In this document: piece by piece, positions 9,482 to 54,600 of the stretch | Numbering within the stretch: position 1 is the stretch's first letter | Layout of the letters: every line of letters begins with the position of its first letter | Assembly (NCBI RefSeq): GCF_009914755.1 | Contig: NC_060942.1 | Length of the DNA: 64,000 nucleotides | Direction: 5' to 3' (one strand) | Source of the DNA: the human T2T-CHM13v2.0 reference genome, Homo sapiens | The notes under the pieces: generated by a model | What the model was told of the DNA's origin: nothing | Seen by the model: the letters and a program-made list of their open reading frames with translations, nothing else | Database searches by the model: none | Made by a program: the position numbers and the translations under genes

Positions 9482-12400
9482 TCAATTCCCACCTATGAAT
9501 GGGAACATACGGTGTTTGGTTTTTTGTCCTTGCAATAGTTTCCTGAGAATGATGGTTTCCAGCTTCATCCATGTCCCTGCAAAGGACATGAACTCATCCT
9601 GTTTTATGGCTGCGTAGTATTCCATGGTGTATATGTGCCACATTTTCTTTCTTTCTTTTTTTTTTTTTTTTCTGAGATTGAATCTTGCTCTGTTGCCCAG
9701 GGTGGAGTGGAGTGCAGTGGCACGATCTCGGCTTACTGCAAGCTCCATCTCCTGGGTTCCCGCCATTCTCCTGTCTCAGCCTCCTGATTAGCTGGGACTA
9801 CAGGTGCCCACCATCACACCCAGCTATTTTTTTTTGTATTTTTAGTAGAGACGGGGTTTCACCATGTTAGCCAGGATGGTCTCGATCTCCTGACCTTCTG
9901 ATCCACCTGCCTTGGCCTCCCAAAATGCTGGGATTACAGGCGTGAGCCACTGCGCCCAGCTGTGCCACATTTTCTTAATCCAGTCTATCACTGATGAACA
10001 TTTGGGTTGGTTCCAAGTGTTTGCTATTGTGAATAGTGCCACAATAAGCATACGTGTGCACGTGTCTTTACAGTAGCATGATTTATAATCCTTTGGGTAT
10101 ATACCCAGTAATGGGATGGCTGGGTCAAATGGTATTTCTAGTTCTAGACCCTTGAAAAATCGCCACACTGACTTCCACAATGTTTGAACTAGTTTACAGT
10201 CCCACCAACACTGTAAAAGTGTTCCTATTTTTCCACATCCTCTCCAGCACCCATTGTTTCCTGACTTTTTAATGATCGACATTTTAACTGATGTGAGATG
10301 GTATCTCATTGTGGTTTTGATTTGCATTTCTCTGATGGCCAGTGATGATGAGCATTTTTTCATGTGTCTGTTGGCTGCATAAATGTCGTCTTTTGAGAAG
10401 TGTCTGTTCATATGCTTCGCCCACTTTTTGATGTTTTTTTTTTTCTTGTAAATTTGTTTGAGTTCTTTATAGATTCTGGATATTAGCCCTTTGTCAGATG
10501 AGTAGGTTGCAAAAATTTTCTCCCATTCTGTAGGTTGCCTTTTCACTCTGATGGTAGTTTCTTTTGCTGTGCAGAAGCTCTTTAGTTTAATTAGATCCCA
10601 TTTGTCAATTCTGGCTTTTGTTGCCATTGCCTTTGGTGTTTTAGATATGAAGTCCTTGCCCATGCCTATGTCCTGAATGGTATTGCCTAGGTTTTCTTCT
10701 AGGGTTTTGATGGTTTTAGGTCTAACATTTAAATCTTTAATCCATCTTGAATTAATTTTTGTATAAGGCATAAGGAAGGGATCCAGTTTCAGCTTTCTAC
10801 ATATGGCTAGCCAGTTTTCCCAGCACCATGTATTAAATAGGAAATCCTTTCCCCATTTCTTGTTTTTGTCAGGTTTGTCAAAGATCAGATGGTTGTAGAT
10901 GTGTGGTATTATTTCTGAGGGCTCTGTTCTGTTCCATTGGTCTATATCTCTGTTTCAGTACCAGTGCCATGCTGTTTTGGTTACTGTATCCTTGTAGTAT
11001 AATTTGAAGTCAGGTAGTGTGATGCCTCCAGCTTTGTTCTTTTGGCTTAGGATTGACTTGGCAATGCGGGCTCTTTTTTGTTTCCATATGAACTTTAAAG
11101 TAGTTTTTTCCAATTCTGTGAAGAAAGTCATTGGTAGCTTGATGGGATGACATTGAATCTATAAATTACCTTGGGCAGTATGGCCATTTTCAAGATATTG
11201 ATTCTTCCTATCCATGAGCATGGAATGTTCTTCCATTTGTTTGTGTCCTCTTTTATTTCGTTGAGCAGTGGTTTGTATTTCTCCTTAAGAGGTCCTTCAC
11301 ATCCCTTGTAAGTTGTATTCCTAGGTATTTTATTCTTTTTGAAGCAATTGTGAATGGGAGTTCACTCATGATTTGGCTCTCTGTTTGTCTGTTGTTGGTG
11401 TATAAGAATGCTCGTGATTTTTGCACATTGATTTTGTATCCTGAGACTTTGCTGAAGTTGCTTATCAGCTTAAGGAGATTTTGGGCTGAGACAATGGGGT
11501 TTTCTAGATATACAATCATATCATCTGCAAACAGGGACAATTTGACTTCCTCTTTTCCTAATTGAATACCTTTTATTTCTTTCTCCTTCCTGATTGCCCT
11601 GGCCAGAACTTCCAACACTATGTTGAATAGGAGTGGTGAGAGAGGGCATCCCTGTCTTGTACCAGTTTTCAAAGGGAATGCTTCCAATTTTTGCCCATTC
11701 AGTATGATATTGGCTGTGGGTTTGTCATAAATAGCTCTTATTATTTTGAGATATGTCCCATCAATACCTAATTTATTGAGACTTTTTAGCATGAAGGGCT
11801 GTTGAATTTTGTCAAAGGCCTTTTCTGCATCTATTGAGATAACCAAGTGGTTTTTGTCTTTGGTTCTGTTTATATGCTGGATTACGTTTATTGATTTTCG
11901 TATGTTGAACCAGCCTTGCATCCAAGGGATGAAGCCCATTTGATCATGGTGGATAAGCTTTTTGATGTGCTGCTGGATTCGGTGTGCCAGTATTTTATTG
12001 AGGACTTTTGCATCGCTATTCATCAGGGATATTTGTCTAAAATTCTCTTTTTTTGTTGTGTCTCTGCCAGGCTTTGGTATCAGGATGATGCTAGCCTCAT
12101 AAAATGAGTTAGGGAGGCTTCCCTTTTTTTATATTGATTGGAATAGTTTCAGAAGGAATGGTACCAGTTCCTCCTTGTACCTCTGGTAGAATTCGGCTGT
12201 GAATCCATCTGGTCCTGGACTTTTTTTGGTTGGTAGGCTATTAATTATTGCCTCAATTTCAGAGCCTGTTATTGGTCTATTCAGGGATTCAACTTCTTCC
12301 TAGTTTAGTCTTGGGAGGGTGTATGTGTCGATGAATTTATCCATTTCTTCTAGATTTTCTAGTTTATTTGCGTAGAGGTGTTTATAGTATTCTCTGATGG

Positions 12401-51600: not shown

Positions 51601-54600
51601 ATGACAGGATCAAATTCACACATAACAATATTAACTTTAAATGTAAATGGACTAAATTCTCCAATTAAAAGACACAGACTGGCAAGTTGGATAAAGAGTC
51701 AAGACCCATCAGTGTGCTGTATTCAGGAAACCCATCTCACGTGCAGAGACACACATAGGATCAAAATAAAAGGATGGAGGAAGATCTACCAAGCAAATGG
51801 AAAACAAAAAAAGGCAGGGGTTGCAATCCTAGTCTCTGATAAAACAGACTTTAAACCAACAAAGATCAAAAGAGAAAAAGAAGGCCATTACATAATGGTA
51901 AAGGGATTAATTCAACAAGAGGAGCTAACTATCCTAAATATATATGCACCCAATACAGGAGCACCCAGATTCATAAAGCAAATCCTGAGTGACCTACAAA
52001 GAGACTTAGACTCCCACACATTAATAATGGGAGACTTTAACACCCCACTGTCAACATTAGACAGATCAAAGAGACAGAAAGTCAACAAGGATACCCAGGA
52101 ATTGAACTCAGCTCTGCACCAAGCGGACCTAATAGACATCTACAGAACTCTCCACCCCAAATCAACAGAATATATATTTTTTTCAGCACCACACCACACC
52201 TATTCCAAAATTGACCACATAGTTGGAAGTAAAGCTCTCCTCAGCAAATGTAAAAGAACAGAAATTATAACAAACTATCTCTCAGACCACAGTGCAATCA
52301 AACTAGAACTCAGGATTAAGAATCTCACTCAAAGCCGCTCAACTACATGGAAACTGAACAACCTGCTCCTGAATGACTACTGGGTACATAACGAAATGAA
52401 GGCAGAAATAAAGATGTTCTTTGAAACCAACGAGAACAAAGACACAACATAACAGAATCTCTGGGACGCATTCAAAGCAGTGTGTAGAGGGAAATTTATA
52501 GCACTAAATGCCCACAAGAGAAAGCAGGAAAGATCCAAAATTGACACCCTAACATCACAATTAAAAGAACTAGAAAAGCAAGAGCAAACACATTCAAAAG
52601 CTAGCAGAAGGCAAGAAATAACTAAAATCAGAGCAGAACTGAAGGAAATAGAGACACAAAAAACCCTTCAAAAAATCAATGAATCCAGGAGCTGGTTTTT
52701 TGAAAGGATCAACAAAATCGATAGACCGCTAGCAAGACTAATAAAGAAAAAAAGAGAGAAGAATCAAATAGACACAATAAAAAATGATAAAGGGGATATC
52801 ACCACCAATCCCACAGAAATACAAACTACCATCAGAGAATACTACAAACACCTCTACACAAATAAACTAGAAAACCTAGAAGAAATGGATACATTCCTCG
52901 ACACCTACACTCTCCCAAGACTAAACCAGGAAGAAGTTGAATCTCTGAATAGACCAATAACAGGAGCTGAAATTGTGGCAATAATCAATAGTTTACCAAC
53001 CAAAAAGAGTCCAGGACCAGATGGATTCACAGCCGAATTCTTCCAGAGGTACAAGGAGGAACTGGTACCATTCCTTCTGAAACTATTCCAATCAATAGAA
53101 AAAGAGGGAATCCTCCCTAACTCATTTTATGGGGCCAGCATCATTCTGATACCAAAGCCGGGCAGAGACACAACCAAAAAAGAGAATTTTAGACAAATAT
53201 CCCTGATGAATAGCGATGCAAAAATCCTCAATAAAATACTGGCAAACTGAATCCAGCAGCACATCAAAAAGCTTATCCACCATGATCAAGTGGGCTTCAT
53301 CCCTGGGATGCAAGGGTGGTTCAATATACGCAAATCAATAAATGTAATCCAGCATATAAACAGAGCCAAAGACAAAAACCACATGATTATCTCAATAGAT
53401 GCAGAAAAAGCCTTTGACAAAATTCAACAACCCTTCATGCTAAAAACTCTCAATAAATTAGGTATTGATGGGACGTATTTCAAAATAATAAGAGCTATCT
53501 ATGACAAACCCACAGTCAATATCATACTGAATGGGCAAAAACTGGAAGCATTCCCTTTGAAAACGGGCACAAGACAGGGATGCCCTCTCTCACCACTCCT
53601 GTTCAACATAGTGTCGGAAGTTCTGGCCAGGGCAATCAGGCAGGAGAAGGAAATAAAGGGTATTCAATTAGGAAAAAAGAGGAAGTCAAATTGTCCCTGT
53701 TTGCAGACGACATGATTGTTTATCTAGAAAACCCCATCGTCTCAGCCCAAAATCTCCTTAAGCTGATAAGCAACTTCAGCAAAGTCTCAGGATACAAAAT
53801 CAATGTACAAAAATCACAAGCATTCTTATACACCAACAACAGACAAACAGAGAGCCAAATCATGAGTGAACTCCCATTCACAATTGCTTCAAAGAGAATA
53901 AAATACCTAGGAATCCAACTTACAAGGGATGTGAAGGACCTCTTCAAGGAGAACTACAAACCACTGCTCAAGGAAATAAAAGAGGATACAAACAAATGGA
54001 AGAACATTCCATGCTCATGGGTAGGAAGAATCAATATCGTGAAAATGGCCATACTGCCCAAGGTAATTTACAGATTCAATGCCATCCCCATCAAGCTACC
54101 AATGACTTTCTTCACAGAATTGGAAAAAACTACTTTAAAGTTCATATGGAACCAAAAAAGAGCCCACATCGCCAAGTCAATCCTAAGCCAAAAGAACAAA
54201 GATGGAGGCATCACACTACCTGACTTCAAACTATACTACAAGGCTACAGTAACCAAAACAGCATGGTACTGGTACCAAAACAGAGATATAGATCAATGGA
54301 ACAGAACAGAGCCCTCAGAAATAACGCCGCATACCTACAACTATCTGATCTTTGACAAACCTGAGAAAAACAAGCAATGGGGAAAGGATTCCCTATTTAA
54401 TAAATGGTGCTGGGAAAACTGGCTAGCCATATGTAGAAAGCTGAAACTGGATCCCTTCCTTACACCTTATACAAAAATCAACTCAAGATGGATTAAAGAT
54501 TTAAACGTTAGACCTAAAACCATAAAAACCCTAGAAGAAAACCTAGGCATTACCATTCAGGACATAGGCGTGGGCAAGGACTTCATGTCCAAAACACCAA

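What the first reader, a model, noticed from the sequence alone, without database searches (positions are those of the whole stretch)
12006..53223. Shared 48-bp patch between two different-age inverted L1s: candidate ectopic gene conversion across 41 kb
Seen: 12006-12053 (L1PA4/5, minus) is the exact reverse complement of 53176-53223 (L1PA2-like, plus). Both read agacAaatatccctgatgaaTaGcgatg ([11 protein letters not shown]). The elements differ at the bases just outside (12005/53224, 12054/53175) and broadly elsewhere. Recalled L1PA ORF2 reads RPISLMNIDAK, and the third L1 piece here (56.6 kb) has MNI, so three non-consensus substitutions within 19 bp (12034/53195, 12018/53211, 12016/53213) are shared. 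The young element also seems to carry older-type 'ccctg' and 'cgatg' here. Inference: a short conversion tract, probably old to young, meaning the two L1s have paired.
Basis: partly seen in the sequence, partly recalled or inferred. Interest (0 to 1): 0.8.

Follow-up and report, generated by a model that had tools for sequence, protein, structure and literature searches.

The report
Short gene-conversion patch between two L1s

Summary
Window 12006-12053 (minus) is the exact reverse complement of 53176-53223 (plus).

The 48-bp identity is not unusual in itself. The two L1s are about 92-93% identical, and 13 exact runs between them are longer.

What is unusual is the content of the patch:
- The 28-mer holding the three rare substitutions occurs twice in the 3.1-Gb genome, and both copies are these two elements.
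- B (49613-55659) is a young L1PA2-type copy. It has the young state at 61 of 64 diagnostic sites. Its only clustered old-type sites are the two inside the patch.
- 834 copies genome-wide share B's 62-bp left flank exactly. Of these, 716 continue with the young-type patch, and only B continues with A's version.
- A (about 9264-15712) is older and old-type throughout.

Best reading: one non-reciprocal copying event from A into B. The tract is at least 20 bp (53195-53214), most likely at most 48 bp, and at most 149 bp.

It is a new instance of a known process. I could not date it, check other human haplotypes or other primates, or inspect reads.

The parts
9264..15712 (-). Element A: older full-length L1 (L1PA4/5-like by divergence). 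It is the inferred donor. It contains a later Alu insertion at about 9645-9960.
   Evidence: A is old-type at 58 of 64 diagnostic sites. Non-CpG core divergence is 146 of 5256, or 2.78%. It carries the ~128-bp 5'UTR block. The ends were read by eye and are approximate.
12006..12053 (-). Donor copy of the patch in A (48-bp exact match). The five informative bases lie at 12034, 12026, 12018, 12016 and 12015.
   Evidence: The patch state (old-type C/C plus three rare bases) is continuous with A's old-type flanks.
49613..55659 (+). Element B: younger full-length L1 (L1PA2-type). It is the inferred acceptor. It is flanked by a 15-bp target-site duplication at 49598-49612 and 55660-55674.
   Evidence: Target-site duplication. 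Best relatives are L034 at 98.16% and L037 at 97.81% identity. Young state at 61 of 64 diagnostic sites. Lacks the ~128-bp 5'UTR block after 50387. Non-CpG core divergence 57 of 5277, or 1.08%. ORF2 is interrupted by a stop at 53248-53250.
53176..53223 (+). Converted patch in B, at its most likely maximal extent. It is bounded on the left by diagnostic site 53175 (B young C, A old A). It is bounded on the right by A's private G at 12005 (= 53224), which B lacks.
53195..53214 (+). Minimal tract. At five sites (53195 A, 53203 C, 53211 T, 53213 G, 53214 C) B departs from its own subfamily and equals A.
   Evidence: Genome-wide support. The run of 5 sites was reached in 13 of 200000 permutations.
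51809..51883 (+). Possible second micro-tract (A 13354-13428). It is a 75-bp exact run holding one shared rare base, C>A at 51876. It is weak and unresolved.
   Evidence: The 34-mer with this base occurs 40 times genome-wide, so coincidence is plausible.

Best explanation
After the young L1 (B) inserted, a short stretch of its ORF2 region was replaced by the homologous stretch of the older, oppositely oriented L1 (A), 41 kb away on the same chromosome. The exchange was non-reciprocal, that is, non-allelic (ectopic, intrachromosomal) gene conversion.

Most likely mechanism (inferred, not shown): a break or gap in B was repaired by strand invasion into A, a few dozen bases were copied, and the strand returned to B without a crossover. 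The low A-B identity (about 92-93%) would have limited the heteroduplex and kept the tract very short.

Shown:
- the mosaic structure of B;
- the genome-wide uniqueness of the haplotype;
- the donor-consistent background in A;
- the direction, A to B.

Inferred:
- the molecular pathway;
- germline timing after B's insertion;
- fixation status.

No function is implied. B's ORF2 already carries a stop, and the patch merely changes two residues (P to Q, I to S) in a dead copy.
For: 1. Uniqueness.
   - The 28-mer with all five states occurs 2 times in 3.1 Gb, and both are A and B.
   - Within 2 mismatches there are 88 hits. Only one is at 1 mismatch (C5:122724966).
   - The Q+S pattern with Y at three sites finds only A, B and that C5 copy.

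2. Background frequencies.
   - The consensus-type 28-mer has 6154 copies. Of these, 1132 are the old C/C type.
   - On the C/C background, my hand count gives 49 copies with only the aaT change, 16 with only Q and 6 with only S.
   - By my arithmetic, independence would predict about 0.004 copies with all three.

3. B is discordant only in the patch.
   - Young state at 22 of 24 diagnostic sites within +-1.2 kb. The other two, 53203 and 53214, are old.
   - Young state at 61 of 64 sites over the full length.

4. A test that does not depend on the panel.
   - B's exact 62-bp left flank, which includes a subfamily marker at 53145, occurs 834 times.
   - 716 of these continue with the young T/T patch.
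   - Within 3 mismatches of B's 86-mer there are only B and one copy that lacks the marker. So none of the other 833 copies has an old-type patch.

5. Clustering.
   - There are 300 informative sites (B versus A versus the young majority). 15 group B with A, and five of them are consecutive.
   - A run of 5 or more arose in 13 of 200000 permutations.

6. Direction. A is old-type at 58 of 64 sites and on both sides of the patch.

7. Independent insertions.
   - Only L1 sequence aligns between the two loci.
   - B has its own 15-bp target-site duplication.

8. Proximity. The only two carriers in the genome lie 41 kb apart.

9. Precedent.
   - Double-strand-break repair in a chromosomal LINE by conversion from endogenous LINEs, with tracts down to 13 bp. 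This is as cited in PMC1920257 (passages).
   - Old-to-young partial conversions among Alu elements: PMC8230782 (passages).
Against: - Only one assembly was available. I could not show the pre-conversion state of B in another haplotype or species, and I could not inspect reads.
- The young (T/T) panel was chosen by requiring T at 53203 and 53214. In the panel-based tests those two sites are therefore discordant by construction.
- Without those two sites the run is 3 sites long. Runs of 3 or more arose in about 3% of the same permutations (6014 of 200000).
- The case then rests on the genome-wide counts, which do not depend on the panel.
- The diagnostic site at 53175 is imperfect. 60 copies combine its young base with the old-type patch consensus.
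- The search tool states that its counts for repeats are lower bounds. However, pattern searches did return thousands of hits for common forms.
- No recombination-hotspot motif lies near the patch. The nearest 13-mer match in B is at 55491-55503, 2.3 kb away.
- A tract of 20-48 bp is at the short end of what is usually reported.
Confidence: 0.85

Rival explanations
1. Replication-based templated patch. A stalled or broken fork in B switched briefly to the inverted copy A (template switching or microhomology-mediated repair), copied a few dozen bases and switched back. The outcome is the same as gene conversion, but the pathway is replicative rather than recombinational.
For: - The copies are inverted, and the patch is very short (20-48 bp), as in switch-and-return events (PMC5453318, passages).
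- No hotspot motif lies near the patch.
Against: - Described short template switches use donors within the same fork, close in primary sequence. Here the donor is 41 kb away.
- The patch sits at the exactly homologous position of a 6-kb homology, as expected for homology-guided repair.
- The sequence alone cannot separate the two pathways.
Confidence: 0.08
2. B was born with the patch. Either its source element already carried it, or the cDNA became chimeric during reverse transcription by switching to an RNA of A's lineage and back.
For: - Mosaic L1s formed at the RNA or cDNA level are known (recalled, not checked here).
- C5:122724966 shows that Q+S exists in one other old copy.
Against: - None of the other 833 copies sharing B's exact left flank has the patch.
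- No source or sibling with the haplotype exists in this genome.
- An RNA-level origin gives no reason for the only other carrier to lie 41 kb away.
- It would need two switches within 48 bp or less.
Confidence: 0.04
3. Assembly or polishing artefact. Reads from A were used at B's position, so the patch is not in the real chromosome.
For: Only one assembly was seen.
Against: - The patch lacks A's own bases 20 bp to the left (53175) and 10 bp to the right (53224). Any cross-mapped read of 100 bp or more would have carried those too.
- The two L1s differ at about 7-8% of sites over 6 kb. Long reads anchored in unique flanks should not be confused between them (inference).
Confidence: 0.03
4. Coincidence. 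The five bases arose independently in both elements.
For: - Each single variant recurs in other copies: 49, 16 and 6 copies by hand count.
- B and A also share a few scattered recurrent changes elsewhere.
Against: - The expected number of triple-variant copies on the old background is about 0.004 (my arithmetic).
- B would additionally need two reversions to the old type.
- The only two carriers lie 41 kb apart in 3.1 Gb.
Confidence: 0.001

Closest known systems
Non-allelic gene conversion among Alu elements (PMC8230782, passages read; review PMC6598467, passages read)
   Same: - A block of neighbouring donor-type bases sits in an acceptor of another subfamily.
- Partial conversions are common.
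- Old-to-young direction has been documented (12 cases).
- The rate rises with proximity.
- Their acceptance rule of at least three neighbouring diagnostic changes is met here with five.
   Different: - Here the elements are 6-kb L1s, not 300-bp Alus.
- The donor is identified individually through a genome-unique haplotype.
- The distance is 41 kb, beyond the under-10-kb range that the review stresses.
- Orthologues were not compared.
[quoted passage not shown] I know this only through its citation in PMC1920257. The paper itself is not held.
   Same: L1-to-L1 templated repair with very short tracts (down to 13 bp, as cited) between diverged copies.
   Different: That was an induced break in cultured mouse cells with various donors. 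This is a natural event in a human chromosome with a single nearby donor.
Interlocus gene conversion in human segmental duplications (PMC10172114, passages read)
   Same: Non-reciprocal intrachromosomal transfer between paralogous sequences, detected in the same kind of complete assemblies.
   Different: - That survey used 1-kb windows, so a 48-bp tract is below its resolution.
- Its mean event was 6.26 kb.
- Its events were largely restricted to high-identity duplications: only 325 events in 66.1 Mb with more than 10% divergence.
- Here the partners are dispersed repeats at about 92% identity.
Short-range template switching that creates mutation clusters (PMC5453318, passages read)
   Same: A cluster of nearby substitutions explained by one templated copy from an inverted sequence.
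   Different: - That model covers donors close by in the same fork.
- Its high-confidence set excludes repeat-masked fragments.
- Here the donor is 41 kb away and lies inside repeats.
Non-allelic gene conversion among human LTR elements (PMC4921805, search listing and start of abstract only)
   Same: Ectopic conversion among dispersed retroelement copies in the human genome.
   Different: A different element class. I did not read the details.

Membership tests
Non-allelic (ectopic) gene conversion | The acceptor is a mosaic: a contiguous block of donor-type bases flanked on both sides by the acceptor's own lineage states. | tested here: met
   B has the young state at 22 of 24 diagnostic sites within +-1.2 kb and at 61 of 64 over its full length. 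Five consecutive A-type sites lie at 53195-53214.
Non-allelic (ectopic) gene conversion | The donor keeps the block within a background that fits it, so the transfer is non-reciprocal. | tested here: met
   A is old-type at 58 of 64 sites and on both sides of the patch. A's four young-state sites are scattered singletons, and none adjoins the patch.
Non-allelic (ectopic) gene conversion | The shared block is not explained by common descent or subfamily membership. | tested here: met
   The haplotype occurs 2 times in the genome. Of 834 copies with B's left flank, 716 have the young patch and only B has A's. A and B share only 2 doubleton sites outside the patch in the 36-sequence set.
Non-allelic (ectopic) gene conversion | Clustering of the shared sites beyond chance. 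| tested here: met
   A run of 5 sites was reached in 13 of 200000 permutations. Two of the five sites are discordant by panel design. Without them the run is 3 sites, which about 3% of permutations reach.
Non-allelic (ectopic) gene conversion | The two copies are independent loci, not arms of one duplication. | tested here: met
   Only L1 sequence aligns between the loci, at 92.85% over 4897 bp. B has its own 15-bp target-site duplication. The two elements belong to different subfamilies.
Non-allelic (ectopic) gene conversion | The pre-conversion state of the acceptor is seen in an orthologue or another haplotype. | not testable with these tools
   No other human or primate assembly was reachable. 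The 28-mer is absent from genome contigs and viral contigs.
Non-allelic (ectopic) gene conversion | Read-level support that the mosaic is real. | not testable with these tools
   No reads were available. There is only the indirect argument from the missing neighbouring A-specific bases.
L1PA2-type young L1 (element B) | Loss of the 129-bp 5'UTR block that is present in L1PA3/L1PA4 (PMC5860796). | tested here: met
   B lacks about 128 bp after 50387, which is about 775 nt from its 5' end. The block is present in A, in 9 older C/C copies and in 7 older T/T copies.
L1PA2-type young L1 (element B) | Formal assignment by RepeatMasker or Dfam consensus. | not tested
   No such library was on hand. 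The names L1PA2 and L1PA4/5 remain approximate.
Short-range replication template switch (four-point model) | The donor lies close by in primary sequence, within the same fork. | tested here: not met
   The donor is 41123 bp away (coordinates).

The most novel reading that the evidence does not exclude
Neighbouring L1 copies within tens of kilobases, perhaps especially inverted pairs, may routinely exchange patches of 50 bp or less. If so, a measurable share of clustered 'private' substitutions in old repeats would be templated rather than independent mutations. This layer of concerted evolution lies below the resolution of published conversion surveys.

Hints:
- In three lists of rare L1 haplotypes, close pairs are over-represented. 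There are 4 pairs among 40 hits, 2 among 60 and 2 among 88.
- By my arithmetic, uniform placement would give at most about 0.12 pairs per list.

Against:
- Follow-up on 600-bp fetches was mixed. Two pairs look like local duplications (96.5% and 97.8% identity with many shared rare sites), and the others were ambiguous.
Probability: 0.2. Interest if true: 0.65.

Novelty: new member of a known kind. Interest (0 to 1): 0.42.

Why it matters
It is a well-resolved natural example of ectopic conversion between two human L1s of different age. The donor is pinned down individually, the direction is clear, and the tract is very short (20-48 bp) despite only about 92% identity and 41 kb of separation.

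- Events of this size fall below the 1-kb windows used to map interlocus conversion in segmental duplications.
- They are also excluded from template-switch surveys that drop repeat-masked sequence.
- They can distort repeat dating and subfamily calls, and they can mimic multi-nucleotide mutations.
- The test used here works on a single complete assembly. It asks for a haplotype shared by neighbours, unique in the genome, and discordant with the acceptor's flanks. It could be turned into a genome-wide screen.
- For this locus no functional consequence is expected. No gene is annotated in the window, and B's ORF2 is already interrupted.

Tried and rejected
- 48-bp identity as evidence: rejected. 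13 longer exact runs exist between A and B.
- C5:122724966 (L003; it has Q+S but lacks the third change) as a close relative of A or an alternative donor: rejected. It shares 1 doubleton site with A over the full length.
- Further tracts:
  - The C>A at 51876 is shared, but its 34-mer occurs 40 times genome-wide. Left open.
  - The A>G at 55168 sits in only 8 bp of A-B identity, so it is probably coincidence.
  - The other shared B deviations are recurrent C>T changes, or are also present in B's relatives.
  - A's four young-state diagnostic sites are scattered singletons, about the number expected from A's own divergence (my arithmetic).
- Hotspot motif near the patch: none. The nearest match in B is 2.3 kb away.
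- Independent copy of the locus in other collections: none.
- Six fetched loci (L004, L005, L006, L010, L011, L012) hold the motif in much older L1s, only 60-72% identical to A and B. They were left out of all group tallies.
- A first full-length alignment mis-oriented most young copies. It was discarded and redone.
  - The old-type group is therefore the 14 copies chosen for carrying one or two of the variants.
  - Its tallies at 53195, 53211 and 53213 are biased and were not used as frequencies.
- Literature: four searches found no paper describing this locus and no systematic survey of L1-L1 micro-conversion in humans. Subscription papers are not covered, so this is no proof that none exists.

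
Full report
**1. The observation**

Window 12006-12053 read on the minus strand is identical to 53176-53223 on the plus strand, 48 of 48 bases. The bases just outside differ on both sides. In the ORF2 frame, B reads ...[24 protein letters not shown], followed by a stop.

Solved human L1 ORF2p chains (8c8j, 8sxt, 8uw3, 9k6g, 9hdo) read FRPISLMNIDAK at the aligned place. 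By the alignment offsets, Q replaces P at about residue 532 and S replaces I at about residue 538. The third L1 piece in the window (56193-56690, minus) reads [11 protein letters not shown].

**2. Is the 48-bp identity itself remarkable?**

No.
- blastn aligns the two elements at 92.85% over 4897 bp.
- In a pairwise alignment of 5036 columns there are 331 exact runs. The longest is 84 bp, and 13 are longer than 48 bp.

The interest lies in which bases the run contains.

**3. What the two elements are**

B:
- It runs from 49613 to 55659 and is flanked by a 15-bp target-site duplication at 49598-49612 and 55660-55674.
- It is full length and 98.16% identical to a copy on contig 1 (L034).
- It lacks a block of about 128 bp in the 5'UTR, about 775 nt from its start. 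A and 16 older copies in the panel have this block. This fits the 129-bp loss that separates L1PA2/L1PA1 from L1PA3/L1PA4 (PMC5860796, passages).

A:
- It runs from about 9264 to 15712 on the minus strand. It is full length and carries a later Alu at about 9645-9960.

Relative age:
- There are 5294 core sites where the young and old majorities agree.
- At the non-CpG core sites, B differs at 57 of 5277 (1.08%) and A at 146 of 5256 (2.78%).

No RepeatMasker or Dfam assignment was possible.

**4. Genome-wide rarity**

The window's own complete assembly could be searched by pattern.

| Search | Result |
|---|---|
| 28-mer with all five states, exact | 2 hits, A and B |
| Same 28-mer, up to 2 mismatches | 88 hits; only C5:122724966 at 1 mismatch (has Q and S, lacks the third change) |
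| Q+S pattern with either pyrimidine at three sites | A, B and the C5 copy only |
| Consensus form of the 28-mer | 6154 copies |
| Old C/C type of the consensus | 1132 copies |

- From my hand count, the single variants on the old background number 49, 16 and 6. The remaining 14 two-mismatch rows carry other combinations.
- By my arithmetic, about 0.004 copies would be expected to carry all three by independent mutation.
- The C5 copy shares just one doubleton site with A over the full length. It is not a special relative of A.

**5. B is a mosaic**

The panels:
- I fetched 40 other L1 copies of 6401 bp each.
- 20 of them were the first young-type (T/T) rows.
- The other 20 carried one or two of the variants. 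Six of these turned out to be much older L1s (60-72% identity) and were left out of the tallies.

The results:
- Within +-1.2 kb there are 24 sites where the young and old majorities differ. B has the young state at 22 and the old state only at 53203 and 53214.
- Over the full length B is young at 61 of 64 sites. The third exception, 55357, is a site where 4 of 17 young copies also have the old base.
- A is old at 58 of 64 sites.
- B departs from the young majority at 95 columns, and 15 of those equal A. Five are consecutive informative sites: 53195, 53203, 53211, 53213 and 53214.
- In a permutation of the 300 informative sites, a run of five was reached 13 times in 200000.

**6. A check that does not lean on the panel**

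The young panel was picked by its T/T state, so two of the five sites are discordant by design. I therefore used B's flank alone.
- B's unchanged 62-bp left flank, which contains a subfamily marker at 53145, occurs 834 times in the genome.
- 716 of these continue with the young-type patch exactly.
- Within three mismatches of B's own 86-mer there are only B and one copy that lacks the marker.

So none of the other 833 flank-sharing copies has an old-type patch. B's lineage natively had T/T.

**7. Extent and direction**

- Left bound: the tract starts after 53175. That site is diagnostic, with B carrying the young base and A the old one. The site is imperfect, since 60 copies combine the young base with the old patch consensus.
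- Right bound: A's private G at 12005 (= 53224) is absent from B. The first firm diagnostic site on this side is 53325.
- The tract is therefore at least 20 bp (53195-53214), most likely at most 48 bp, and at most 149 bp.
- Direction: the patch is old-type and A is old-type around it, so the transfer ran from A to B.

**8. Mechanism and rivals**

The simplest account is one non-reciprocal, homology-guided copying event between inverted repeats on the same chromosome. It occurred after B inserted and without a crossover.
- A replicative switch-and-return would give the same product and cannot be separated by sequence. Described events of that kind use donors close by.
- Birth of B as a chimera, or inheritance from its source, is disfavoured. 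No sibling or source with the patch exists, and the sole other carrier lies 41 kb away.
- An assembly artefact is disfavoured because the patch lacks A's own bases 20 bp to the left and 10 bp to the right. Reads were not available.
- Independent mutation is excluded for practical purposes.
- No hotspot-like 13-mer lies near the patch.

**9. Comparison with what is known**

- Non-allelic conversion among Alu elements is well described. It includes partial and old-to-young events and a dependence on distance.
- Conversion of a broken chromosomal LINE from endogenous LINEs, with tracts down to 13 bp, was shown in mouse cells. I have this only as cited in PMC1920257. The original paper is not held.
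- Surveys of interlocus conversion in human duplications use 1-kb windows and find few events above 10% divergence.

This locus is thus a new instance of a known process, at a scale that those surveys do not see. My four literature searches found no description of this locus and no systematic survey of L1-L1 micro-conversion in humans.

**10. Side observation**

Among the genome-wide hits of three rare L1 haplotypes, close pairs are over-represented: 4 pairs in 40 hits, 2 in 60 and 2 in 88. Uniform placement would give at most about 0.12 pairs per list.
- Small fetches showed that two pairs look like local duplications.
- One pair belongs to an older subfamily in which the base may be native.
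- The rest are ambiguous.

This is a lead, not a result.

**11. Verdict**

Confidence is about 0.85 that a short A-to-B templated transfer occurred. Interest is moderate.

Noticed in passing
G000 contigs: C2:68412059/68418146, C3:776853/810712, C4:21980848/22020454, C2:215708935/215741695, C7:45479698/45540712, C7:53446564/53492165 (loci L043-L054): Close pairs (6-61 kb apart) are over-represented among genome-wide hits of rare L1 haplotypes: 4 pairs in 40 hits, 2 in 60 and 2 in 88. Uniform placement would give at most about 0.12 pairs per list. All four pairs in the 40-hit list are inverted. On 600-bp fetches, two pairs look like local duplications (96.5% and 97.8% identical, with many shared rare sites). 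The others show no excess sharing or are ambiguous.
   Followed up: partly
window 9645-9960 (minus): An Alu of about 310 bp with a poly-A tail is inserted in the 3' part of element A, in the same orientation as A. It accounts for the 327-column gap in B relative to A.
   Followed up: partly
window 51809-51883 / 13354-13428: A 75-bp exact A-B run contains a shared C>A at 51876. This base is absent from all 25 panel copies, but its 34-mer occurs 40 times genome-wide. It could be a second micro-tract or a coincidence.
   Followed up: partly
G000:C5:122724966-122724993 (locus L003): This is the only other copy in the genome with both the P-to-Q and I-to-S changes on the old background. Its core divergence (2.59%) is similar to A's, but it shares only one doubleton site with A. 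It may be a sibling from a rare source carrying those two changes, or a coincidence.
   Followed up: partly
window 53145: A C>T marker in B's left flank defines a large young L1 group. B's exact 62-mer, which carries the marker, occurs 834 times genome-wide.
   Followed up: yes
window 53248-53250: B's ORF2 frame has a stop codon 34 bp downstream of the last converted base, so B is a non-coding copy.
   Followed up: no
window 56193-56690 (minus): A third, much older L1 ORF2 fragment lies in the window. It is 84.5% identical to B over 503 bp and has the same orientation as A. It shows no sign of exchange with A or B at the patch.
   Followed up: partly
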